Assembly (NCBI GenBank): GCA_033763375.1
Contig: JANRKR010000056.1
Span: forward strand, 1-46,777
Direction: 5' to 3'
From: Rickettsiales bacterium
GTDB lineage: Bacteria > Pseudomonadota > Alphaproteobacteria > Rickettsiales > UBA1997
Length of the DNA stretch: 46,777 bases
In this document: one piece after another, positions 3 through 37,028 of the stretch
Numbering within the stretch: the first letter of the stretch is position 1
Layout of the letters: every line of letters begins with the position of its first letter
Notes under the pieces: model-generated
Told to the model about the DNA's origin: nothing
The model's database searches: none
What the model saw: the letters and a program-made list of their open reading frames with translations, nothing else
Program-made: the position numbers and the translations under genes

Positions 3-1757
3 TTAGGTTTGCAAGATAAGCTTGCTAAAAAAATCGCTAATGAAAATTCGATGAATTATTCATCAAATTTTCTAACTCAAAAAGTTAACAGAACTATTGA
101 AAAAAACGCCAAAGCTCTGGTTTTGACTGATGATGAAAAAAAATTAATCGCTGGTAAAGAAAAAGAACGTTCTCGCGCTCTTGGTCAAGATATCTTTTAT
201 CCCAATTACTACGAAAATTTGGAAAAAACTCTAAATATTGATCTGCCGCTGGCTTCGTTTAAAGGCGTATCTTTTTTAAATAAGTCGCCAAATGAAATTT
301 CTGTCACTTTCAACGACAGCACCAACAATATTGCTTATATTCACATTCCTGGCACAAATCAGGCTTATGTGCGGGCGCAATTGTGCAAGCAAGATGGTCC
401 AATGACAGTTTGTGAAAATGGTAAAAAAGTAATCAAAGAATATAAAAAAGGCGATGTGGTTATTGATAGTGAAACAATTTTTCACTATGTTCCAACCATG
501 ATAAAAGATAAAAACGGCAATCCAACTTTAGTTCAGCAAGTTGGAGTTGATGGAAAGCCGCTTTATGAATATAGACCAGTTGGGCTTGAAGATACATATT
601 CACAAACTGCTGGCAACTTATTATCGAAAGGTGCTGATACTATTTTAGGTATTGCCAGCCTTGGTCTTCTTTCATCAGGAAGAGATACTAAATCACGCAT
701 AAAGCGCGAATTTGGTTTGGATGATTACGAACATGTTGTAAAAAGATATAAAGATATAAAAGTTTTGGCGGTTGCTACTAACGAAAATGGTGAAAGATCA
801 GTTGCCACACTTCATGACGGTAAAGCTGTAAATCATTCAGTTTTGGGCAGAGAAGAAGTTAAAGTTGTTGACGCTCCTGAACCAATGAATGTTAATAAAG
901 ATTTGCTTGGCATTAGAGCTGATAAAGATTCTAACGGCGCAGAAATCAAATTTGTTTTTGATGAAAAGGGTAATTTAAAAGATGATGGCAATCTTTGCAC
1001 AATAGAAGCCAAGAATAGTTCCAAGGATTTTTATGGATATGGTCGCTATGTTAGTTGTGATAATTTTAAAATTGGTCAACTACAATTATTTGCCAAGGTT
1101 GGAGTTATTACCGGTGAAGGATCAGTTTTAAACCATTCAGGAATTTCTTCCGCAAGAGATGGAGATATATTTTTCAAACAAAATCTTTATTACACAAATC
1201 CAGCCAATCCAAATGAAAAGCTTCCAATGTTTAAGAATGATGGATCTTTCAAAGATTTAAGTGCTGATTTTTTGAAATATTGTCGAGATAATGGAATTCA
1301 ACTTACAGCTAAAGATATAGCAAATCTGGTTTATAATTTTCAGAATAATTTTAGTGCAGCAGTTTCTGTAGAAATTGAGAAGCCAAAAGATATACAAGAA
1401 TTCGATGGTTCCAATATTTCTCGTACAAAGTATCAATTACAATCCATAAACGCGCCAATGGTTGTAAGGCCAGGCAAAGCTGTTGAAAATGATGTATCTT
1501 TGAAAGAAGATTTATTGACCTTGCGCGCAAACACAATTGCAGCAAGTGCAGCTTCAAGAACAACGCCTGATTTTAGTAATTTAAAAGAATTAAATACCCA
1601 AGTTACTAATATCAAAAACTATAAAAACTTATCGGCAGAAAGAAAAGCTAAACCAGTTAGCGCTGCTTTTGGTCTTTTAGGTAAACCAAATACTGATTTT
1701 AAACCAACTGGAGCTGAACTTCTTAAAGCATCTGCAGAACGTCGTCAACATGTTTGA
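3..1757 (+). CDS. Hypothetical protein, 5'-truncated by the window edge (at least 582 aa)
   Basis: Long ORF whose frame stays open to the window start; its stop overlaps the mnmG start by 8 bp; no family motif recognised. Confidence 0.75.
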
Positions 1758-3639
1758 GAAATTTGATGTAATTGTTATTGGTGGCGGACATGCTGGCGTT
1801 GAGGCAGCTTGCGCTGCGGCGCGAGTTGGTTCTGAAGTTTTATTGATTACTAAATCGCCACAAAATCTTGGTGAGATGTCTTGCAATCCTGCAATCGGTG
1901 GCGTTGCCAAAGGAACAATTGTTAAAGAAATTGATGCGCTCGATGGAATAATGGCAAAAGCAATTGATGAAGCCGGAATTCACTTTCGTATTTTAAACGC
2001 TTCCAAAGGTGCCGCAGTTCATTCGCCCAGAGCGCAAGCTGATCGCAAGCTTTACAAAAAAGCCATCAACAAAATTTTACAAAATTATCCTAATCTTAAA
2101 ATTATTTTTGGTGCGGTTGAAGATATCGCTGTTGTTGATGGTAAAGTTGAGGCGTTAATTTTGGCTGACGGAAAAAAATTTTTTTGCAAAAACATTATCC
2201 TAACTACCGGAACATTCTTGCGTGGCATGATTCACATTGGTGATCAAAAAACGCCAGCGGGAAGAGTTGGTGAAGCGCCATCACACGGAATTTCAAAAAC
2301 TTTAGAACAACATAATTTTATTTTAGGGCGTCTTAAAACCGGAACGCCACCTAGAATTTTAAAAAGCTCAATTGATTTTTCAAAACTTGAAGAACAGCCA
2401 GGCGATAATCCGCCGCAGCCATTTTCTTATTTAAATGATGAAATTAAAGTGGCGCAAATCTCTTGTTTTATAACTTATACCAATATCAAAACTCATCAGA
2501 TTATCAAAAATAATTTAGATAAATCGGCGATGTATGGCGGATATATTTCTGGCGTTGGTCCAAGATATTGCCCGTCAATTGAAGATAAAGTTCATCGTTT
2601 TTTTGATAAAGATCGTCATCAAATTTTTTTAGAACCAGAAGGTTTGGAAAGTGATTTAATTTATCCAAATGGCATTTCTACCTCGCTGCCGCTTAATGTA
2701 CAAATTGAATTTTTGCACACAATTCCCGGTTTAGAAAATTGTCAAGTTACGCAAGCTGGCTATGCTATTGAATATGATTTTGTTGATCCGCGCCAATTAT
2801 TACCAACGCTGGAAACTAAAAAAATTCGTGGTTTGTTTTTTGCTGGACAAATCAATGGAACAACTGGTTATGAAGAAGCGGCAGGACAAGGAATTGTCGC
2901 TGGAATTAACGCCGCGCTGCGTAGTAAAAATTCTCAAGAAGAATTTATTTTAGATCGATCAGAAAGTTATATTGGCGTAATGATTGATGATTTAACCACA
3001 TTTGGAACTTCTGAACCTTATCGTATGTTGACTTCGCGTGCGGAATATCGTTTAAGTTTGCGTGCTGATAATGCTGATTTACGTTTGACTGAAAAAGGCA
3101 TCAAATTTGGTTGTGTTGGTTTTGAGCGTGCTGAAATTTTTAAAAATAAAAAAGAAAAAATTCTGCAAGCGACAGAATTTTTACAAGAGCTGAAAATTTC
3201 ACCAAATAAATTAAGTAATTTTGGCGTTACGATTAAGCAAGATGGAGTTGTGCGCAACGCCTTACAATTATTATCTTTTCCTGAAATAAATTTTGACGTT
3301 TTAGAAAAAATCTGGCCACAAATTGCCAAAGAAAATTCTCGAATTGGGGCGAGGTTAAAAAATCAAATTGCAATCAATGCAATTTACAGTTCTTACTTGC
3401 AACGCCAAGAACAAGATTTACAGATTTTTCGTAAAGAAGAAAACATGAAAATTCCTCTTGATCTTGACTATAACAACATCCAAAGTCTTTCTAGTGAAGT
3501 AAAAGAAAAGCTTGGCAAGTGGCGTCCAGCAACGATTGGTGCCGCTTCCAAAATTCAAGGAATCACTCCTGCAGCAATTATGGCAGTGATGATTTATGTC
3601 AAAAATAATTCTGTTAAAAATTTTAGAGAAAATAAATAA
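1750..3639 (+). CDS. mnmG: tRNA uridine 5-carboxymethylaminomethyl modification enzyme MnmG (GidA)
   Basis: [19 protein letters not shown]-binding start, [53 protein letters not shown]. Confidence 0.98.
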
Positions 3640-5796: not shown

Positions 5797-7191
5797 ATGA
5801 ACTCAATATTTAGAGCCAAAATATTTAGAACTAAAAGCATCGAAAGTATTATTGAGGGTGCAAAGAAAAATTCTCTTAAAAAAACTTTAGGATCGATTGA
5901 TTTAATTTTATTTGGTATTGGCTGTACTATTGGTACCGGAATCTTTGTTTTAACTGGAATTGCTGCAGCGCAATATGCTGGTCCGGCAATTGCTATTTCT
6001 TACGTTTTGGCCGGTCTTGCCTGTATGTTTGCGGCTTTAGCTTATACTGAACTTGCGGCGATGGTTCCAGTTGCTGGCAGCGCTTATACTTATTCATATG
6101 CAATTCTTGGTGAATTTGTGGCGTGGTTGGTGGCTTGGGGTTTAATTTTAGAATATACAGTTGCGGCTTCAACCGTTGCTGCTGGCTGGTCAGGATATTT
6201 TATCGGTATATTAAAATCTGGCGATATTATTATTCCCGAGGCTTTAACCAAAGTTCCATCCGATGGCGGTATAATAAATCTGCCGGCAGTTTGCGTAGCT
6301 TTTTTTGTTGGCACTCTTCTTACTTTTGGCACTAAAGAAAGTGTGATGGTTAATCGTATTTTAGTGGCGATAAAACTTGGCGTAATTTTTTTGTTTTTAA
6401 TTATTGCGGCGCCGCACATCAAAATGGAAAACTATACCAATTTTATGCCTTACGGTTGGCACGGTGTTGGCGCTGGTGCTGCGGCAATTTTCTTTGCTTA
6501 TTTAGGTTTTGATGCAGTCGCTACAACTGCCGAAGAATGTAAAAATCCTAATCGCGATTTACCAATTGGCATTATTGGTGGTTTAACAATTTGTGCGATT
6601 TTGTACGTTTTAGTTTCGCTGACGTTGACCGGAATTGTTAATTACACTGAATTAAACAATCCTGAGCCAATGGCTTTTGCGTTGCGCGCCAATGGCAGCA
6701 CAATTGGTTCCGCCTTGGTTGGAACTGGAGCCGTTGCCGGAATGTTAGCGGTTTTGTTGGTTTTAATGTATGGACAATCTCGTGTTTTTTTTGTTATGGC
6801 GCGCGATGGTTTGATGCCATCAGCTTTTTGTAAATTGCATCCAAAATTTGCAACTCCTTACTTAGGTTGTATTTCTGTTACTATTGCCGTGATGGTAATT
6901 TCTGGCTTTACACCAATTCACACTATGGGAAATATGAGTAGTTTAGGAATTCTTTTTGCTTTTGTGGTTGTAGCTTTTGGTGTTTTAGTTTTGCGTTTAA
7001 AAAGACCGGAATTACATCGACCTTTCAAATGTCCGGCAGTTTTTTTAGTAGCGCCAATTGCGATTATTAGTTGTGGATATTTGATGTATAATTTACTTCT
7101 AAAAACCGGCGTTCCTTTTTTAACCTGGTTCACACTTGGCACTATTGTTTACGCTTTATATGGTTATCGCAAAAGTTATCTCAATAAATAA
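5797..7191 (+). CDS. APC-family amino acid permease (cationic amino acid transporter-like), copy 1
   Basis: GIGCTIGTGIFVLTG, AGPA, PVAGSAYTYSY, FFAYLGFDAVATTAEECKNP, SRVFFVMARDGL; many hydrophobic segments. Confidence 0.92.
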   Translation: MNSIFRAKIFRTKSIESIIEGAKKNSLKKTLGSIDLILFGIGCTIGTGIFVLTGIAAAQYAGPAIAISYVLAGLACMFAALAYTELAAMVPVAGSAYTYSYAILGEFVAWLVAWGLILEYTVAASTVAAGWSGYFIGILKSGDIIIPEALTKVPSDGGIINLPAVCVAFFVGTLLTFGTKESVMVNRILVAIKLGVIFLFLIIAAPHIKMENYTNFMPYGWHGVGAGAAAIFFAYLGFDAVATTAEECKNPNRDLPIGIIGGLTICAILYVLVSLTLTGIVNYTELNNPEPMAFALRANGSTIGSALVGTGAVAGMLAVLLVLMYGQSRVFFVMARDGLMPSAFCKLHPKFATPYLGCISVTIAVMVISGFTPIHTMGNMSSLGILFAFVVVAFGVLVLRLKRPELHRPFKCPAVFLVAPIAIISCGYLMYNLLLKTGVPFLTWFTLGTIVYALYGYRKSYLNK

Positions 7192-7199
7192 AATTCCTA

Positions 7200-8603
7200 A
7201 TGTCGCTGCTTCGTAAGAAAACTATTCAAGAAATTTTAGCTAACGCTGAAAAAAACACTCTGAAAAAAACCCTTGGCGCTTTTGATTTGGTGATGATTGG
7301 CATTGGTTGCACCATTGGCACCGGAATTTTTGTCGTAACCGGAATTGCTGCTGCAACCTACGCTGGTCCAGCAATTGCTATTTCTTATTTTTTAGCTGCT
7401 GTTGTCTGTATTTTTGCCGGCTTGGCTTATGCCGAATTAGCATCAATGGTTCCGGTTGCTGGCAGCGCTTACACTTATTCTTACGCTGTTCTTGGTGAAT
7501 TTATTGCCTGGTTAGTTGGTTGGGGTTTGGTTTTAGAATATGCTATTGGCGCTTCCACGGTTGCTTCTGGCTGGTCGGGCTACATGGTTGGAATTTTAAA
7601 ATCGGGCGGCATTTTAATTCCCGAAGCTTTGGCAAACTCGCCGGCAAATGGCGGAATTATTAATTTGCCAGCAGTTTTAATTTCTTTGTTTATTGGCGTT
7701 TTGCTTTTTCGCGGCACTAAAGAAAGCGTTAAATTAAATCGTATTTTAGTGGTCACAAAATTGGGTGTGATCTTTTTATTTTTGGTCATTGCCACGCCAA
7801 TGATTAAGATGGATAATTGGTCAGATTTTACGCCATTTGGCATTAGCGGAATTTTTATTGGTGCGGCAACAGTTTTTTATGCTTATATCGGTTTTGATGC
7901 AGTTGCTACAGCGGCGGAAGAATGTAAAAATCCTAAAAAAGATTTGCCAATTGGTATTATTGTTTCAGCAGCAGTTTGCGCTGTGCTTTATGTGGCAGTT
8001 TCTTTGGTATTAACCGGAATTGTGCGCTATGACACTTTAAATAACGCTGAACCTTTGGCGCGAGCGTTGCGTGAAAATGGCAGTAATATTGGATCAGCTT
8101 TAGTTGCAACTGGCGCAATTGCCGGCATTACCTCGGTTTTATTAATTTTAATTTATGGTCAATCGCGCATTTTTTTTGTGATGGCACGCGATGGATTAAT
8201 TCCACCAGCTTTTTGTAAATTACATAAAAAATTTGCTACACCACATTTTGCCGTAGCTTTTGTTTCGATTGCTGTAGCTTTAATTTCAGGCTTTTTTCCG
8301 CTTAAAACTTTAAGTCACATGACTAGCCTTGGCACTTTGTTTTCTTTTGTAATTGTGGCAATTGGAGTTTTAGTTCTTCGTAGAACCGAGCCAAATTTAC
8401 CGCGCAATTTTAAATGTCCGGCGGCTTATTTTACTGTTCCTGTTGCTGTAATAAGTTGTGGCTATCTGATTTATAATTTGTTGATCGAAAATGGAATCTA
8501 CTTCTCAATTTGGACTATAATTGGTCTGATCATTTACTTTGGCTATAGTTATAAAAATAGTCCGCTTGGAAAAGCTAATTATAGCATATCCCATCTTAAA
8601 TGA
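7200..8603 (+). CDS. APC-family amino acid permease, copy 2 (tandem paralogue)
   Basis: Same motif set as copy 1 (GIGCTIGTGIFVVTG, PVAGSAYTYSY, YAYIGFDAVATAAEECKNP); 8-bp gap from copy 1. Confidence 0.92.
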   Translation: MSLLRKKTIQEILANAEKNTLKKTLGAFDLVMIGIGCTIGTGIFVVTGIAAATYAGPAIAISYFLAAVVCIFAGLAYAELASMVPVAGSAYTYSYAVLGEFIAWLVGWGLVLEYAIGASTVASGWSGYMVGILKSGGILIPEALANSPANGGIINLPAVLISLFIGVLLFRGTKESVKLNRILVVTKLGVIFLFLVIATPMIKMDNWSDFTPFGISGIFIGAATVFYAYIGFDAVATAAEECKNPKKDLPIGIIVSAAVCAVLYVAVSLVLTGIVRYDTLNNAEPLARALRENGSNIGSALVATGAIAGITSVLLILIYGQSRIFFVMARDGLIPPAFCKLHKKFATPHFAVAFVSIAVALISGFFPLKTLSHMTSLGTLFSFVIVAIGVLVLRRTEPNLPRNFKCPAAYFTVPVAVISCGYLIYNLLIENGIYFSIWTIIGLIIYFGYSYKNSPLGKANYSISHLK

Positions 8604-31631: not shown

Positions 31632-32577
31632 AGCCTGATTTTTTAATAGTTATTTTATGATTTTTTTGATCAAATAAAGTTACGCTAAACTTTTTATTAG
31701 TTGCTTTAACAAAGCTGCCAATGCAAGTCAGATCAAGTTTTAAATTTTGTGCTAATTGTAAAATTTTTTGATGATTCTTTGGATTTACAGCAAAAATTAA
31801 TTCATAATCATCACCGCCACAGATTAAATCGGTAATTTTTATTTGAGAGTTATTTTGCAAAGTTTTTTTTGCCGCTTCAGAAAACGGCACTTTATCTAAA
31901 AAAATTTCAGCACTAACTTGTGAAGATTGGCAAATATGGTTTAAATCAGCCAGCAAGCCATCAGAAACATCAATTGCACATCGCGAAAGATTTTTATCCA
32001 ATAATTGTTTTCCCAACTCAACTCGCGGCGATGGCAAAAAATGTCGTTGTTGCAAATATTTATTTTTAATTCCTTTTAAACCCAAAAAAGCGTCGCCAAT
32101 TGTTCCGGAAACAAAAATTAAATCACCATCTTGCGCCTGATTACGCAGTAAAATTTTACCTTTTTTAATAATACCAAAAATTGTAATTGAGAAAAAAAGT
32201 TTTTTTGCTGCAACGGTATCGCCACCAATTAAAGACAGCTGAAATTGATCTTGAACTGATTTTAATCCACTAACAAATTGGCGTAAAAATCTGGCATCGG
32301 TATAATTATTTTTAGAAAATCCTAATAAATAATGAAGTGGCTTCGCACCAGATGCAGCAAGGTCAGAAATGTTGGTAAGCAGAAGTTTTGCTGCAATTTT
32401 AGCAACATTTTGCGATCTTAAAAAGTGAACATCTTCAACAAAAATATCTTTACTAACGACTAATTCTTCATCTGCTTTTAATTTTATTTTTGCTACGTCG
32501 TCTTGAAGATTTTGCGCAGCTTGGTGACTTTTGGTTAAAGGTTTAAAATATTTTTCAATCAGCTGAAATTCTCTCAT
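31621..32577 (-). CDS. thiL: Thiamine-monophosphate kinase
   Basis: MREFQLI, DDVA, VEDVHF, NISDLAASGA, LIGGDT, VSGTIGDA, IDVSDGLLADL, GGDDYEL. Confidence 0.95.
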   Translation of the reverse strand: MREFQLIEKYFKPLTKSHQAAQNLQDDVAKIKLKADEELVVSKDIFVEDVHFLRSQNVAKIAAKLLLTNISDLAASGAKPLHYLLGFSKNNYTDARFLRQFVSGLKSVQDQFQLSLIGGDTVAAKKLFFSITIFGIIKKGKILLRNQAQDGDLIFVSGTIGDAFLGLKGIKNKYLQQRHFLPSPRVELGKQLLDKNLSRCAIDVSDGLLADLNHICQSSQVSAEIFLDKVPFSEAAKKTLQNNSQIKITDLICGGDDYELIFAVNPKNHQKILQLAQNLKLDLTCIGSFVKATNKKFSVTLFDQKNHKITIKKSGYEH

Positions 32578-33317
32578 AATTTAAAATCAACAATCACGCC
32601 ATTTTCGATAAAACGATTGAGCAAAGTTCCAATATCGAAAGTTTTTTTATTTTCTTTGCAGAGAATTTTATATATTTCGTAAAGCTTTTTTCCTTGTCGT
32701 ATTTTGATTAAAAACAAAAATTCTATTTTACTAAGTTCAATAATTCTTCCGTTGTATATCAGCATGAATTCTGCCTTGGTAAAGTTTTTTATTTTTTTTT
32801 CTTGTCGCCAAATTGAATAAATCGCCAATTTTGTCTTAAATAAAGTAACACGATCGTCAACATTAAAAGTTAAATCAGAAAAATCTTTTTGGGTAATTTT
32901 TTTAAATTTTTTTAGGTCAAATTTTTTTCTTCTTTCGTCAAAAAAATAAGAATGATGATGTAAAAGTTCTAACTGCGCTAAATCTTTTAAATATAATGGT
33001 TTACATGATTTTATAAATTGTGGAAATTTTTTACCAAATTCGTTTAAATCGCCACTTTTAGAAGGAAATTTTTGGCAATATTTTTTGGCTAATTCGCAAA
33101 AATTTTTTTCACCCAAAATTTTTTTTGTTACCAAAAAAATTGACGATAAAACTGCAATAAAATTTCCCAAAACATTATTGCGATAAATGTCTAAGCGAGC
33201 AAGCGCTTCAAGGTTTGGATGTAAAATTTCTTGCAGAATTTCTTGATCAGATTTGCTAAAAATATGTTTAGCAAATTGCTGTTGAGTTTTGATCAGGCTA
33301 GAGTTTTTTTTGCTCAT
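32574..33317 (-). CDS. DUF2063-family partner protein (HvfC/BufC-like peptide-recognition partner of MNIO enzymes)
   Basis: QQQFAKHI...RLDIYRNNV...LSSIFLVTKKILGEKNF...FPSKSGDLNEFGKKFPQFI...YLKDLAQLE; directly downstream of and overlapping DUF692. Confidence 0.85.
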   Translation of the reverse strand: MSKKNSSLIKTQQQFAKHIFSKSDQEILQEILHPNLEALARLDIYRNNVLGNFIAVLSSIFLVTKKILGEKNFCELAKKYCQKFPSKSGDLNEFGKKFPQFIKSCKPLYLKDLAQLELLHHHSYFFDERRKKFDLKKFKKITQKDFSDLTFNVDDRVTLFKTKLAIYSIWRQEKKIKNFTKAEFMLIYNGRIIELSKIEFLFLIKIRQGKKLYEIYKILCKENKKTFDIGTLLNRFIENGVIVDFKL

Positions 33318-34179
33318 TTTCTAAAATCTTTTTAGCTTTTTTTGATTCGCCAAGTAACACTTCAAAGTCTGGAAAGTCTTGATCCCATTCTATTAAAGAA
33401 GGAACTTTGCCAAAAATTTCTATAGCCATTTTATAAATTTGCCACACTTGTGAATTGACCAAATTATTGTGAGTGTCGATAAGAATTTTTTTATGTTTTT
33501 TGCCGTCAAAAATTTCTGATTGAGAATGTCCGGCTAAATGAATTTCTTTAACAATTTTTTTATTAAGTTTTTTTAGATAATTTATTGGTTCAAACTGAGC
33601 GCAATTTTGCCAACTAACAAAAATATTGTTTACATCTAAAAGCAAAGCGCAGCCAGTTTTAGCGGTGATTTCATTGATAAAATCAGCTTCAGACATTTCT
33701 GATTTTTTAAAAGCTAAATAAGCAGAAGGATTTTCAATCAGAATTTGAGATTTGAGAAAATCCTGCATTTGTAAAATATTATCTGTAATTGCCTGCAATG
33801 ATTCTTTGGTGTAAGGTAAAGGCAACAAGTCATTGAGATGATTTTTGTTAATTCTTCCCCAAGAAATATGATCAGAAATTAAAAAAGGTTGAGTAATTTC
33901 GGCTAAAGCTTTTAGTTTTTTTAAATGGTTTAAATCAAGTTTTTGAGAGGATCCAAGCGAGTTTCCAACTGAATGCAAGCTGAGAGGAAAATCTTGGCGA
34001 ATTGTGATTAAATTTTTTACGGCGACGCTGTTTAGATCGTAATAATTTTCACTGTGGATTTCGATCCAGCCGATTTTTTTTGAGATTTTTCGAGGATTTT
34101 TTAGAAAGTGTGGAACATATTGAGATCTAAGCCCAACTCCGGCTAGATTTGACGGAGTTGGAACTTTTTTAAAACTCAT
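33298..34179 (-). CDS. DUF692 multinuclear non-heme iron oxidative enzyme (MNIO; MbnB/TglH/ChrH/HvfB/BufB family)
   Basis: GVGLR, WIEIHSENY, LSLHSVGNSLG, ISDHISW, DLLPLPYT, LIENPSAY, LLLDVNN, EIHLAGH, IDTH, LIEWD. Confidence 0.93.
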   Translation of the reverse strand: MSFKKVPTPSNLAGVGLRSQYVPHFLKNPRKISKKIGWIEIHSENYYDLNSVAVKNLITIRQDFPLSLHSVGNSLGSSQKLDLNHLKKLKALAEITQPFLISDHISWGRINKNHLNDLLPLPYTKESLQAITDNILQMQDFLKSQILIENPSAYLAFKKSEMSEADFINEITAKTGCALLLDVNNIFVSWQNCAQFEPINYLKKLNKKIVKEIHLAGHSQSEIFDGKKHKKILIDTHNNLVNSQVWQIYKMAIEIFGKVPSLIEWDQDFPDFEVLLGESKKAKKILENEQKKL

Positions 34180-34189
34180 AAGACTAAAA

Positions 34190-34480
34190 TTAGTTTTTAG
34201 TTTCTTCAGTTTTAGTTTCTTCTTTTTTTACAGCAGATTTTTTATGTTTTTTGCTTTTGGTTTTAGAAGCGCATTTATTAGCTTCATCTTTCATTGCTGA
34301 ACATTTGTGAGCTTCATCTTTTTTGCCAGAGCATTTGTGAGCTTCATCTTTTTTAGCAGCGCAGCCATTTTTAGCGCCACAGAAATTAGCTTCGCTTTTG
34401 CCACCAAAATGTGAACAAGAAGCAACAAGGCTAAGAGTTGCTATACCAGCAGCAACTGATTGTAAGAATTTTTTATTCAT
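34190..34480 (-). CDS. Putative RiPP precursor: Cys-repeat lipoprotein
   Basis: Signal MNKKFLQSVAAGIATLSLVAS|C22; Cys at 34, 40, 50, 60, 70; three 10-aa repeats KKDEAHKCSG / KKDEAHKCSA / MKDEANKCAS; 10 bp upstream of DUF692. Confidence 0.85.
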   Translation of the reverse strand: MNKKFLQSVAAGIATLSLVASCSHFGGKSEANFCGAKNGCAAKKDEAHKCSGKKDEAHKCSAMKDEANKCASKTKSKKHKKSAVKKEETKTEETKN

Positions 34481-34657
34481 AGAATTTACCTATAATTTTA
34501 GATTATTTTGGATAGAAAAGCGAGTCATTGGTGATGTAATTGCCGCGGCAAATTATTTAGTAAATTTGACTTGTCAATTGTCTGTTGGAAATTCTAATCT
34601 AAATTAGCTTTGGTTAAAAACTTTAGTTAAAAACAAATTCAAATAAATTCTTTCAAA

Positions 34658-35897: not shown

Positions 35898-37028
35898 ATG
35901 AAAAATCCACGCCACTTTTTAAAAGAATTTAATTTATATTTTTTGATAATTCTTTTTGCGCTCACTTCCTGCAAAACTACTGAAGAAAGAATGCAGAAAA
36001 ATCTTCATTCAACTTGGCAAGAATATTTTCAAAAAACTTTTGATCAAACAGCACCAATTGAAGTTTTAGTTGTAACTAACCGTAATTCTAAAGATCAATT
36101 TTTTAGCTGCGAAGATAGTCAGTTTGGCGTTGAAGTTAATCAGGATTTAAAATTGGGGGATTTAAAATTTGGTATTTGTAAAATTAATGTTCCAAAAAAT
36201 CATATTGTTGGCGAAATAGAATTTGCCAAAGATAAAAAACAATCAGAACAAAATTTCTTTAAAATTTTAGATAGTAAAGCTTTGCAAGAAAAAGATTTTT
36301 TTGTTGAAGCTAAAAAGATCAAACGCCAAGCTTTAGTTTTTGTTCATGGTTTTAATGTGCGTTATCAGGAAGCAGTTTTGCGTGCAGCTCAAATTGCTTA
36401 CGACTTAAAATATCAGGGCGCAGTTATTCTTTTTACTTGGCCGGCTGGCGCGAAAGAAGGATTTTTAGCAGATAAAATGCTTAATAAAACCTATGCTGAT
36501 AATGCTAAAAATGCTGCTGATTCAATTCTGGCTTTTAAAAATTTTTTACTAACTCTGCAAAAAAACGATATTAAAATTAATTTGATAGTTCATTCGATGG
36601 GTCATCAAGTTGTGCTTCCGGCTTTACAACTGATTTCTGAATCTTATCCGCAAAAAACTTTGATCAGTAATTTAATTTTAAATGCGCCGGATTTTGAAAT
36701 TGGCCAATTTCGTAAGTTCGCGCCAAATCTTAAAAAAGTTAGTGATCATACCACGCTTTATTGCTCACAAAATGATAAAGCGATGATAGCTTCTAAAAGT
36801 TTCAATAATAATGATCGTCTTGGTGCTTGTGCTTTTATTGAAGAAATTGACGTAATAAATGTCGGCGAAATTGACAATTCAACTTTAGGTTTGGGACATG
36901 GTTATTATTCTTCACGACCAATTTTGTCCGATGTTTTTCAAACTCTTTTAGGAATTGACGCAAACAAAAGATTGTTTGTAGCTAAATCTGATTCAAATGG
37001 TTTAGATAAATATTTTTTGCGTAGATAA
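35898..37028 (+). CDS. Alpha/beta hydrolase lipoprotein (DUF900-like)
   Basis: Lipobox LTSC; VTNR; VFVHGFNV; FTWPA; VHSMG nucleophile elbow; NAPD; GHGYY. Confidence 0.82.
   Translation: MKNPRHFLKEFNLYFLIILFALTSCKTTEERMQKNLHSTWQEYFQKTFDQTAPIEVLVVTNRNSKDQFFSCEDSQFGVEVNQDLKLGDLKFGICKINVPKNHIVGEIEFAKDKKQSEQNFFKILDSKALQEKDFFVEAKKIKRQALVFVHGFNVRYQEAVLRAAQIAYDLKYQGAVILFTWPAGAKEGFLADKMLNKTYADNAKNAADSILAFKNFLLTLQKNDIKINLIVHSMGHQVVLPALQLISESYPQKTLISNLILNAPDFEIGQFRKFAPNLKKVSDHTTLYCSQNDKAMIASKSFNNNDRLGACAFIEEIDVINVGEIDNSTLGLGHGYYSSRPILSDVFQTLLGIDANKRLFVAKSDSNGLDKYFLRR

What the first reader, a model, noticed from the sequence alone, without database searches (positions are those of the whole stretch)
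32574..34480. DUF692 (MNIO)-DUF2063 RiPP-type cluster with an unfamiliar Cys-repeat precursor
Seen: three tightly packed co-oriented genes, a 96-aa secreted Cys-repeat peptide, a DUF692 protein with its usual His/Asp/Glu motifs, and a DUF2063 partner. Known: DUF692 enzymes (MbnB, TglH, ChrH, HvfB, BufB) oxidatively modify Cys in ribosomal peptides, and the precursor-DUF692-DUF2063 layout matches oxazolin (HvfABC) and bufferin clusters that make metal-binding peptides. Here the repeat is xKDEA(H/N)KC, with Cys exactly 10 residues apart (C40, C50, C60, C70) plus an EANFCGAKNGC unit, rather than the EGKCG repeat of HvfA. Inference: a distinct MNIO product family in a Rickettsiales-like host, possibly for copper/metal or oxidative stress.
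Basis: partly seen in the sequence, partly recalled or inferred. Interest (0 to 1): 0.85.

Follow-up and report, generated by a model that had tools for sequence, protein, structure and literature searches.

The report
Lipid-anchored bufferin-type copper peptide cluster
Three neighbouring genes in an uncultured freshwater Rickettsiales-like bacterium look like a bufferin/captophorin-type pathway that turns cysteines of a small lipoprotein into metal-binding groups; it is a new precursor family within an already known class.

Summary
Three co-oriented minus-strand genes encode a 96-aa Cys-repeat peptide (34190-34480), an MNIO/DUF692 enzyme (33298-34179) and a DUF2063 partner (32574-33317).

The enzyme passes NCBIfam's BufB (bufferin maturase) cut-off. 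The peptide matches no curated precursor model (DUF2282/BufA1, BufA2, CefA/HvfA).

All 55 family members carry [VIAL][AT]SC at Cys22, and the genome has Lgt, LspA, Lnt and LolA. The product is therefore probably a lipid-anchored peptide.

The family was found only in the window's own GTDB family: 56 of 126 genomes there, and 0 of 361 sampled genomes from other families of the order.

The motif K-C-[S/A/G] is present in 37 of 37 MNIO-bearing genomes whose lipoprotein I retrieved. It is absent in 11 of 11 MNIO-less genomes that keep the orthologous lipoprotein. A three-gene tree reads those cases as secondary enzyme losses.

Papers from 2024-2026 already describe this class: bufferins, oxazolins and "captophorins" (5-thiooxazole Cu binders), including lipidated members.

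Verdict: a new precursor family in a known class, of moderate interest. Chemistry, lipidation and metal binding are inferred, not shown.

The parts
34190..34480 (-). Precursor gene: 96-aa lipoprotein-type, Cys-repeat, Lys-rich peptide
   Evidence: ORF. It has 54 relatives plus itself. No curated family hit.
34415..34480 (-). Signal peptide, residues 1-22, ending in the lipobox V-A-S-C (Cys22 = predicted lipidation site)
   Evidence: A lipobox pattern was found in 55 of 55 family members, at Cys22 in 54 and Cys24 in one. S21, C22 and S23 are conserved in 90% or more. Lgt, LspA, Lnt and LolA are present in the genome.
34268..34393 (-). Cys core, residues 30-71: E-A-N-F-C-G-A-K-N-G-C-A-A, then three K-D-E-A-(H/N)-K-C-(S/A) units (C34, C40, C50, C60, C70). 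These are the predicted MNIO target sites.
   Evidence: Cys positions. C34 is invariant; C40 and C50 are conserved in 90% or more. The K-C-[SAG] motif co-occurs with MNIO presence.
34271..34363 (-). 30-nt tandem DNA repeat (3.1 copies) that encodes the 10-residue peptide repeat
   Evidence: Tandem Repeats Finder: 83% matches, score 117.
34193..34267 (-). Lys-rich C-terminal tail (residues 72-96, ends ...KTEETKN). It is also kept in orthologues from genomes without the enzyme.
   Evidence: Alignment. MNIO-less orthologues end ...KTETKKN or ...KTEEKKN.
33298..34179 (-). MNIO (DUF692) enzyme, BufB class
   Evidence: PF05114 308 bits. NF050167 BufB 328.3 bits (cut-off 310). HvfB 215 (cut-off 360). 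PDB 3BWW at E 5.9e-37. H42, H69, H104, E149, D182, N185, H214, D235, H237, E264 and D266 are invariant in 18 of 18 sequences.
32574..33317 (-). DUF2063 partner protein (PME1 type): helical N-domain plus RRE-like C-domain
   Evidence: PF09836 78.4 bits. AlphaFold model with pLDDT 88.1. The best Foldseek match is TglI, 8hi7_A (E 5.7e-4, TM 0.56), followed at E 0.15-0.9 by RRE domains (TbiB1, lasso B1, PqqD), each about 100 aligned columns.
34566..34577 (-). Conserved TTGACAAGTCAA inverted repeat (contains a -35-like TTGACA) in the kbl-precursor spacer, 86-97 nt upstream of the precursor ATG. Possibly a promoter/operator.
   Evidence: By my reading of the alignment, the block is identical in 12 of 15 aligned spacers, and TTGAC is invariant in 15 of 15. 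No function was tested. The promoter scan did not list it.

Best explanation
This is a minimal bufABC-type (captophorin/bufferin-class) RiPP cluster whose substrate is a small lipoprotein.

Proposed course of events:
1. In the cytoplasm the iron enzyme (MNIO), held to its substrate by the DUF2063/RRE partner, oxidises the Cys residues that are followed by a small residue: C34, C40, and the [H/N]-K-C-[S/A] sites C50, C60 and C70. The most likely product is 5-thiooxazole, at -4 Da per site.
2. The Sec machinery exports the peptide.
3. Lgt, LspA and Lnt acylate Cys22 and remove residues 1-21.
4. Ser at position +2 suggests Lol-dependent transfer to the outer membrane.

The mature product would be a 75-residue, disordered, Lys-rich peptide tethered by lipid. 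It would carry up to five thiooxazole/thiolate ligands that sequester Cu (or another soft metal) in the envelope.

Shown here: the gene content, family assignments, conservation of the lipobox and the Cys sites, synteny, and co-variation of the K-C-small motif with enzyme presence.

Inferred only: the chemistry, which Cys residues are modified, the lipidation, the location and the metal.
For: (1) Enzyme class. The enzyme passes the BufB equivalog cut-off (328.3 vs 310) and PF05114. Ligand-type residues are invariant. It aligns to MNIO structures 3BWW and MbnB.

(2) Partner. It has a DUF2063 N-domain. Its fold is nearest to the MNIO partner TglI, followed by weaker short matches to RRE domains.

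(3) Gene order. The order precursor-enzyme-partner, with a 10-nt gap and a 20-nt overlap, is the order reported as strictly conserved for bufABC (PMC12452194, section read).

(4) Synteny. MNIO lies directly downstream of the peptide gene in 22 of 25 related loci. DUF2063 follows in 20 of 25; two of the five misses are contig ends.

(5) In two of the three loci that lack it, an orthologous MNIO-DUF2063 pair sits elsewhere with no peptide gene of its own upstream. Those peptides keep K-C-[SAG] sites.

(6) Co-variation. At least one K-C-[SAG] occurs in 37 of 37 MNIO-bearing genomes whose lipoprotein I retrieved (window included). None occurs in 11 of 11 MNIO-less genomes. A three-gene tree places the MNIO-less lineages on it (g2, g15, G100, G113) inside a clade whose outer branches (g7, g14, g4) have the pair (UFBoot 95 and 86). 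That points to several independent losses, each with motif loss.

(7) The residue after the conserved E-x-D is Gln in 18 of 18 MNIOs paired with this precursor type. It is E, T or A in 12 of 12 MNIOs of the same or a sister family paired with other precursors.

(8) Lipoprotein. The lipobox is present in 55 of 55 members. Lgt, LspA, Lnt and LolA are present.

(9) Precedent. All characterised MNIO-PME1 clusters install 5-thiooxazoles and bind Cu (PMC13097082, section read). A lipidated member, NedA, was made in E. coli (PMC13056109, passages).
Against: - There is no experimental datum for this system.
- The precursor matches no curated precursor model. The partner is far below the HvfC cut-off (37.7 vs 142).
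- No DoxX gene is in the cluster or anywhere in the genome, which is 97% complete. No sigma/anti-sigma or other metal-linked gene is adjacent; the neighbours are kbl, thiL, an RDD protein and lpxC. The copper link therefore rests on analogy only.
- Orthologous lipoproteins persist in genomes without any MNIO: genus g2 has 0 of 23 genomes with MNIO, and g15 has 0 of 4. The protein must therefore have a role that needs no modification.
- The K-C-[SAG] motif was defined after looking at the sequences, and related genomes are not independent samples.
- The tree uses three genes with missing data. The placement of g2 and g15 within g1 is weakly supported (UFBoot 40-63).
- In BufA1 bufferins not every Cys is modified (recalled, not from a call), so the number of modified sites is open.
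Confidence: 0.7

Rival explanations
1. The small lipoprotein is not the MNIO substrate. It is a conserved envelope lipoprotein of this bacterial family that merely lies next to the enzyme genes. The real substrate is an unannotated or distant peptide.
For: Orthologues with the same signal peptide, Lys-rich tail and C-terminal ...KTE.KKN sit at the same kbl-thiL position in genomes with no MNIO at all. In two genomes the enzyme pair is unlinked from it. The DAG-RiPP paper lists several non-RiPP lipoproteins that sit in or next to bufferin clusters (PMC13056109, figure legend read).
Against: No other Cys-containing ORF lies between the spacer and the enzyme gene. K-C-[SAG] sites are present in 37 of 37 MNIO-bearing genomes and absent in 11 of 11 MNIO-less ones. 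The unlinked enzyme pairs have no peptide gene of their own. Enzymes paired with this peptide share an invariant Gln at a position that differs in enzymes paired with other precursors.
Confidence: 0.1
2. The peptide is the substrate, but the enzyme installs a different modification (an oxazolone-thioamide, or another Cys oxidation or cross-link) or serves a metal or stress other than copper.
For: MNIOs catalyse many different reactions (abstracts listed). Structural assignments for this very subclass were disputed until 2025-2026 (PMC13097082 abstract; preprint abstracts). The sequence context E-A-[H/N]-K-C-[S/A] and the Gln after E-x-D are not those of any characterised enzyme-substrate pair. 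There is no copper gene next to the cluster.
Against: The enzyme is above the BufB equivalog cut-off. Every characterised MNIO-PME1 cluster so far gave 5-thiooxazoles (PMC13097082).
Confidence: 0.15
3. The cluster is a decaying remnant with no current function in this genome.
For: The enzyme pair has been lost repeatedly in close relatives. Some relatives show stop codons inside matches (G095 MNIO with 1 TAG; G113 peptide match with 2 TAA).
Against: All three window ORFs are intact. All ligand residues are invariant. The genes are tightly packed with overlaps. The enzyme is 61-74% identical across 17 relatives with mean column identity of 76%. The genome is small (1.5 Mb), where dead genes rarely stay intact.
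Confidence: 0.05

Closest known systems
NedABC of Neisseria dentiae (lipidated oxazolin-type 'DAG-RiPP'; PMC13056109, passages read)
   Same: A precursor with an SPII lipoprotein signal, followed by MNIO and a DUF2063-type partner. Lys-Cys-small target sites. Modification in the cytoplasm before export and triacylation.
   Different: NedA carries EGKCG 5-mers. Here the sites are E-A-[H/N]-K-C-[S/A] at 10-residue spacing plus N-x-C-G-A-K-N-G-C-A-A. The enzyme here scores as BufB, not HvfB. There is a long Lys-rich tail. The family is confined to one uncultured lineage.
HvfABC / oxazolin, fontiphorin, gonophorin (captophorins of the 'Lys-Cys' group; PMC13097082, PMC11252979)
   Same: Precursor-MNIO-DUF2063 layout. 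Repeated Lys-Cys sites followed by a small residue. Sec-type export signal. A likely disordered, multi-site metal binder.
   Different: No hit of the window peptide to the CefA model NF038108, which I read (from recall) as the HvfA-type family; the best relative reaches 19.4 bits vs cut-off 30. HvfB score is 215 vs cut-off 360. The residue after E-x-D is Gln here and Phe in 3BWW. No DoxX/HvfX gene.
Bufferins BufA1 (DUF2282) and BufA2 with BufB/BufC (PMC11626156 seen as search listing and abstract only; PMC12452194 sections read)
   Same: The enzyme is above the BufB equivalog cut-off. bufABC gene order. About 16% of Buf2 precursors are predicted lipoproteins.
   Different: The precursor has no DUF2282 or BufA2 similarity. 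There is no folded domain: the Atlas model has pLDDT 0.35. No sigma/NrsF/DoxX genes. True BufA1-like and BufA2-like clusters exist in relatives and look different.
'Cluster X' CxxxxC lipoprotein precursors (PMC13056109) and the 'CxxxxC' family (PMC12452194)
   Same: Uncharacterised MNIO-associated peptides with signal peptides (SPII lipoprotein type in Cluster X) and a conserved pair of Cys.
   Different: Here the conserved pair is C-x5-C (CGAKNGC), with added K-C repeats. Whether these published groups include any member of this family could not be checked because the supplements are closed.

Membership tests
MNIO / DUF692 (PF05114), BufB subclass (NF050167) | HMM score above the curated cut-offs | tested here: met
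   PF05114 308 bits (cut-off 25). NF050167 328.3 (cut-off 310). HvfB NF003818 215 (cut-off 360) is not met.
MNIO / DUF692 (PF05114), BufB subclass (NF050167) | Conserved His/Asp/Glu/Asn iron ligands of the TIM-barrel site | tested here: met
   H69, H104, E149, D182, N185, H214, D235, H237 and E264 are invariant in 18 of 18 sequences. They align with the matching motifs of 3BWW and MbnB. Which residue binds which iron is recalled from MbnB literature, not tested.
MNIO / DUF692 (PF05114), BufB subclass (NF050167) | Iron- and O2-dependent conversion of Cys to 5-thiooxazole | not testable with these tools
   Needs co-expression, MS, UV and NMR.
PME1 partner (DUF2063 + RRE) | N-terminal DUF2063 domain | tested here: met
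   PF09836 78.4 bits (cut-off 27.2), residues 11-102.
PME1 partner (DUF2063 + RRE) | C-terminal RRE-like winged-helix fold | tested here: met
   Model pLDDT 88.1. The whole chain is nearest to TglI 8hi7_A (E 5.7e-4). The following matches are RRE domains of TbiB1, lasso B1 and PqqD, weak (E 0.15-0.9) and about 100 columns each; that they fall on the C-terminal part of the model is my reading, as the output gives no aligned range. 3DEE was not among the listed hits.
PME1 partner (DUF2063 + RRE) | HvfC equivalog score (NF050145) | tested here: not met
   37.7 bits vs cut-off 142.
Captophorin / bufferin-type cluster | Cys-rich precursor with a Sec signal directly upstream of MNIO, then the partner (A-B-C order) | tested here: met
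   The layout recurs in 22 of 25 related loci.
Captophorin / bufferin-type cluster | Frequent accessory DoxX (not obligatory) | tested here: not met
   No PF07681 match in the own genome at 97% completeness.
Captophorin / bufferin-type cluster | Cu binding by the modified peptide; induction by Cu or oxidative stress | not testable with these tools
   No RNA run was listed. A binding assay is needed.
Known precursor families: DUF2282/BufA1, BufA2 (NF050166), CefA (NF038108; read from recall as HvfA-type) | HMM match above cut-off | tested here: not met
   The window peptide gave no such hit, even at E<=10. Among 55 relatives, 6 touch CefA weakly; the best is 19.4 bits vs cut-off 30. As a control, a BufA2-like peptide from a relative does hit NF050166.
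DAG-RiPP (RiPP-lipoprotein hybrid) | Lipobox with invariant Cys at the end of the signal peptide | tested here: met
   55 of 55 members by pattern. SignalP was not available.
DAG-RiPP (RiPP-lipoprotein hybrid) | Host lipoprotein pathway present | tested here: met
   LspA, Lgt, Lnt and LolA are all above cut-off in the own genome.
DAG-RiPP (RiPP-lipoprotein hybrid) | Diacylglyceryl/acyl modification of the mature N-terminal Cys | not testable with these tools
   Needs lipoprotein extraction and MS/MS.

The most novel reading that the evidence does not exclude
The precursor is a dual-use protein. It is a family-wide small envelope lipoprotein with a job of its own (Lys-rich tail, N-terminal Cys pair). 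On it an MNIO pathway writes a variable number of thiooxazole metal sites. Where the enzyme was lost (at least four or five times), the scaffold survived and only the K-C-small target sites decayed. That would give a natural series showing how a RiPP precursor and an ordinary protein grade into each other. It would also offer a ready-made set of natural negative-control substrates for defining MNIO site selectivity, including the Gln at the position after E-x-D.
Probability: 0.35. Interest if true: 0.55.

Novelty: new member of a known kind. Interest (0 to 1): 0.4.

Why it matters
If the reading holds, the known class of thiooxazole copper-binding peptides gains a precursor family that is always a lipoprotein. 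It sits in a small-genome (1.5 Mb), uncultured freshwater lineage labelled Rickettsiales. One survey of reference genomes found the order Rickettsiales depleted in such clusters (PMC13097082). In the window's GTDB order, however, 173 of 401 sampled genomes carry an MNIO.

The more useful point is comparative. Relatives with the enzyme, with an unlinked enzyme, and without the enzyme all keep the same lipoprotein scaffold. Site rules for the enzyme can therefore be read from natural variation and then tested with a few constructs.

It does not open a new kind of biology. The chemistry, the partner protein and lipidation of such peptides are all in print.

Tried and rejected
- Complex prediction (enzyme + partner + precursor, each as an alignment). 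One search did not complete because the machine was busy. The same request was sent again as and collected. The verdict was 'no answer': score 0.49, but 0.44 with the enzyme replaced. This is no evidence either way.
- The look-up of sequencing runs for RNA: no RNA holder was listed.
- Rfam and tRNA scans of the window: nothing found.
- Promoter/terminator scan: not above the shuffled expectation, and it gave no terminator inside the cluster.
- ESM Atlas: only unnamed clusters and sub-threshold structure rows. No lead.
- PDB sequence search with the partner protein: no hit.
- TLC (ATP/ADP translocase) search: no hit, but the control genomes were silent too, so it is uninformative about lifestyle.
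- Rejected idea: that L016, L019 and L024 show loss of the pathway with an unmodified precursor. In two of them the enzyme pair is simply elsewhere in the genome.
- Rejected idea: membership in HvfA/CefA, BufA1 or BufA2.
- Not done: an SSN of the enzyme; a SignalP run (no such tool); a look at Table S2 of PMC12452194 and at Dataset 2/Table S6 of PMC13056109, which may already list members of this family (supplements closed).
- The claim that this precursor family is not described in print rests on searches and on the sections and passages read. It does not rest on supplements.


Full report
WHAT IS THERE

On the minus strand of the window lie three tightly packed ORFs:
- a 96-aa peptide (34190-34480);
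- a 293-aa protein (33298-34179), starting 10 nt after the peptide's stop;
- a 247-aa protein (32574-33317), which overlaps the enzyme gene by 20 nt and the next gene, thiL, by 4 nt.

The neighbours are housekeeping genes. Glycine C-acetyltransferase (kbl) is divergent upstream. thiL, an RDD-family membrane protein and lpxC lie downstream.

The peptide has Cys at positions 22, 34, 40, 50, 60 and 70. The three K-D-E-A-(H/N)-K-C units are mirrored by a 30-nt tandem repeat in the DNA (3.1 copies).

THE TWO ENZYME-SIDE PROTEINS

The 293-aa protein matches Pfam PF05114 (308 bits). It also matches the NCBIfam BufB equivalog 'MNIO family bufferin maturase' at 328.3 bits, above the cut-off of 310. The HvfB model gives 215 bits, below its cut-off of 360.

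It aligns to the MNIO structure 3BWW at E 5.9e-37 and more weakly to MbnB and TglH. In an alignment of 18 relatives the ligand-type residues H69, H104, E149, D182, N185, H214, D235, H237 and E264 are invariant.

The 247-aa protein has the DUF2063 domain at residues 11-102 (78.4 bits). It is far below the HvfC equivalog cut-off (37.7 vs 142) and has no sequence match in the PDB.

An AlphaFold model built from 19 relatives is confident (pLDDT 88.1, pTM 0.82). Foldseek puts the MNIO partner TglI first (8hi7_A, E 5.7e-4, TMq 0.56). Weaker short matches to RiPP recognition elements follow: TbiB1, a lasso-peptide B1 protein and PqqD, each about 100 aligned columns at E 0.15-0.9. I read these as covering the C-terminal part, although the output gives no aligned range. 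This is the architecture that Gadgil et al. call PME1 (PMC13097082, section read).

THE PEPTIDE

It matches no Pfam or NCBIfam family, even at E<=10. The library does contain the relevant precursor models. A BufA2-like peptide from a relative hits NF050166. Six of the 55 family members touch the 'Cys-every-fifth RiPP peptide CefA' model weakly. The best of these is 19.4 bits against a cut-off of 30, in a member with NKCSA 5-mer repeats.

A search of the 5.8-billion-protein collection gave 55 proteins (the window's own included) among 58 candidates.

The family alignment shows:
- an invariant N-terminus, MNKKFLQS...;
- S21-C22-S23 conserved in 90% or more;
- C34 invariant;
- G35, A36, N38, G39, C40, A41, A42, K43, K44, E46, K49 and C50 nearly invariant;
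- then a variable number of further units;
- a Lys-rich tail ending ...KTEEKKN.

All 55 members have a lipobox-type pattern [VIAL][AT]SC. The number of Cys after the lipobox Cys is 2 in 3 members, 3 in 26, 4 in 17, 5 in 4, 6 in 3, 7 in 1 and 9 in 1.

The own genome (1.5 Mb, 97% complete) encodes LspA, Lgt, Lnt and LolA. No SignalP tool was on hand, so this rests on the pattern and its conservation.

WHERE ELSE IT OCCURS

A pattern scan of one genome per species (185,579 species) gave 25 confirmed loci out of 237 stretches that matched a pattern. All are in MAGs titled Rickettsiales, Alphaproteobacteria or similar.

In these loci MNIO follows the peptide gene directly in 22 of 25. DUF2063 follows in 20 of 25. 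Two of the five misses are contig ends and three are real.

Most loci share the order kbl <-> peptide-MNIO-DUF2063-thiL-RDD-lpxC.

Within the window's GTDB family:
- the peptide profile hits 56 of 126 genomes;
- MNIO hits 53 of 126;
- in the window's genus, my tally of the two tables gives both in 30, peptide only in 3, MNIO only in 4 and neither in 6 of 43.

In a sample of 400 genomes of the order, the peptide profile hit 19, all in the window's family, at E<=1e-5. It hit 0 of 361 in the other families. MNIO itself is common in the order (173 of 401).

Other MNIOs in the family sit behind other precursors:
- DUF2282-like peptides;
- a second lipoprotein-type Cys/Lys-rich family;
- in one relative, a BufA2-like peptide with ECF sigma, NrsF, a fused MNIO-DUF2063 and DoxX.

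THE NATURAL EXPERIMENT

Three of the 25 loci lack the enzyme pair next to the peptide gene. In two of those genomes an orthologous MNIO-DUF2063 pair lies elsewhere, with no peptide gene of its own upstream. Their peptides keep two K-C-[SAG] sites each.

In genus g2 (0 of 23 genomes with MNIO) and g15 (0 of 4) a clearly related lipoprotein persists. It has the same kind of signal peptide, the same Lys-rich tail and a similar C-terminus. In g2 it sits in the same kbl-thiL slot. It has only a CxxxC or CxxxxC pair.

Counting the motif K-C-[S/A/G] in the mature part gives:
- at least one in 37 of 37 MNIO-bearing genomes whose lipoprotein I retrieved (window included);
- none in 11 of 11 MNIO-less genomes (one search read).

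Not in this count:
- G109 (peptide cut by a contig end);
- G092 and G082 (no ORF passed my filter);
- five g2 genomes that I did not fetch.

The motif was chosen after seeing the sequences, and relatives are not independent.

A maximum-likelihood tree was built from kbl+lpxC+thiL: 27 genomes, LG+G4, 1000 ultrafast bootstraps, rooted on a genome of another family. Redundant g1 loci and genes covered by less than 80% were left out. The tree puts the MNIO-bearing genera g14, g4 and g7 outside a clade of g1+g2+g15 (UFBoot 95 and 86). The MNIO-less lineages are therefore best read as secondary losses: g2, g15, G100 and G113 on the tree, and G096 off it. The exact place of g2 and g15 is weakly supported (40-63).

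A RESIDUE THAT TRACKS THE PRECURSOR TYPE

Gadgil et al. report that the residue after the catalytic Asp of FonB governs selectivity around the Cys. It is Phe in Lys-Cys enzymes and Asp in Cys-Lys enzymes (PMC13097082, section read).

Taking the Asp of the conserved E-x-D as its equivalent (an inference; I had no FonB sequence), I found:
- 3BWW has D-F;
- the fused enzyme next to the BufA2-like Cys-Lys peptide has D-D (translation);
- the 18 enzymes paired with this peptide family all have D-Q;
- 12 enzymes of the same or a sister family paired with other precursors have D-E (10), D-T or D-A.

HOW IT MOST LIKELY WORKS

By analogy with BufBC, HvfBC, FonBC and NedBC, the proposed sequence is:
1. 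The partner's RRE holds the peptide.
2. The iron enzyme converts Cys followed by a small residue into 5-thiooxazoles in the cytoplasm.
3. Sec exports the peptide.
4. Lgt, LspA and Lnt lipidate Cys22 and cut off residues 1-21.
5. Ser at +2 suggests Lol transfer to the outer membrane.
6. The tethered, disordered, Lys-rich peptide (Atlas model pLDDT 0.35) binds Cu in the envelope.

The genome also has an HMA-domain P-type ATPase and a multicopper oxidase, but no DoxX. Every step after the gene assignments is inferred.

COMPARISON WITH WHAT IS KNOWN

The class is well described:
- bufferins and the survey of MNIO precursors (PMC12452194, sections read);
- oxazolin (PMC11252979, abstract only);
- the unification as captophorins (PMC13097082, sections read);
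- lipidated members (PMC13056109, passages read).

The survey notes 'hundreds of small annotated ORFs' with signal peptides and 1-18 Cys in front of MNIOs, not sorted into families. This family may be among them, but the supplements were closed.

What I did not find in the papers searched:
- this precursor family;
- its universal lipobox;
- the 10-residue E-A-[H/N]-K-C-[S/A] unit;
- the Gln at the selectivity position;
- the persistence of the scaffold after enzyme loss.

VERDICT

This is a real and intact cluster, and a new precursor family inside a known class. Interest is moderate (0.4). Confidence in the mechanism as stated is 0.7. The main rivals are:
- different chemistry or a different metal (0.15);
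- the lipoprotein is a bystander (0.1);
- the cluster is a decaying remnant (0.05).

The complex prediction gave no verdict and no RNA data were listed. Both are reported only under Tried and rejected.

Noticed in passing
window 34566-34577 (minus strand), in the kbl-precursor spacer: The inverted repeat TTGACAAGTCAA, inside a block CAATTGACAAGTCAAAATTG, is identical in 12 of 15 aligned spacers of related genomes (my count from the alignment). It contains a -35-like hexamer and could be a shared promoter/operator for the divergent genes.
   Followed up: partly
L027 (a relative's genome), 59-3582: A second, different cluster in a related genome: ECF sigma, NrsF anti-sigma, an 88-aa BufA2-like Cys-Lys peptide, a 547-aa fused MNIO-DUF2063 and a DoxX-like protein. 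Many MNIO matches elsewhere in the order sit in open frames of 500-650 aa, which suggests such fusions are common there.
   Followed up: partly
L094, L096, L097, L098, L105, L106 (upstream of MNIO genes in six genomes of the same family): A second lipoprotein-type precursor family (MSNKSKFLKS...SSC, then K-x-C-S-type sites) that the window's peptide profile does not detect. Its enzymes have E-W-D-E rather than E-W-D-Q.
   Followed up: partly
L028 and L029 (two relatives): The MNIO-DUF2063 pair has moved to a site just after a 268-272-aa ORF, with no peptide gene upstream. In L029 it is followed by an HvfX/DoxX-like gene. The peptide gene stays at the kbl-thiL site.
   Followed up: yes
window 35898-37028 (+): The DUF900 alpha/beta hydrolase next to kbl also begins with a lipoprotein-like signal (…FALTSCK, read from the translation). 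It keeps this position in most related loci.
   Followed up: no
L021, 7118-8026: In one relative about 900 nt separate the MNIO and DUF2063 genes, which overlap or abut in the other loci. The insert was not examined.
   Followed up: no
G095, G113, G121, G102, G032 (relatives): Stop codons are reported inside some peptide or MNIO matches, for example 1 TAG in the G095 MNIO match and 2 TAA in the G113 peptide match. These are possible pseudogenes or only the ends of short ORFs. G121 has two peptide-like genes, one next to the enzyme and one elsewhere.
   Followed up: partly
window 6001-8000: GC rises to 0.40 and AT skew drops to -0.25, against about 0.33 GC elsewhere. No rRNA, tRNA or Rfam match was found in the window.
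   Followed up: no
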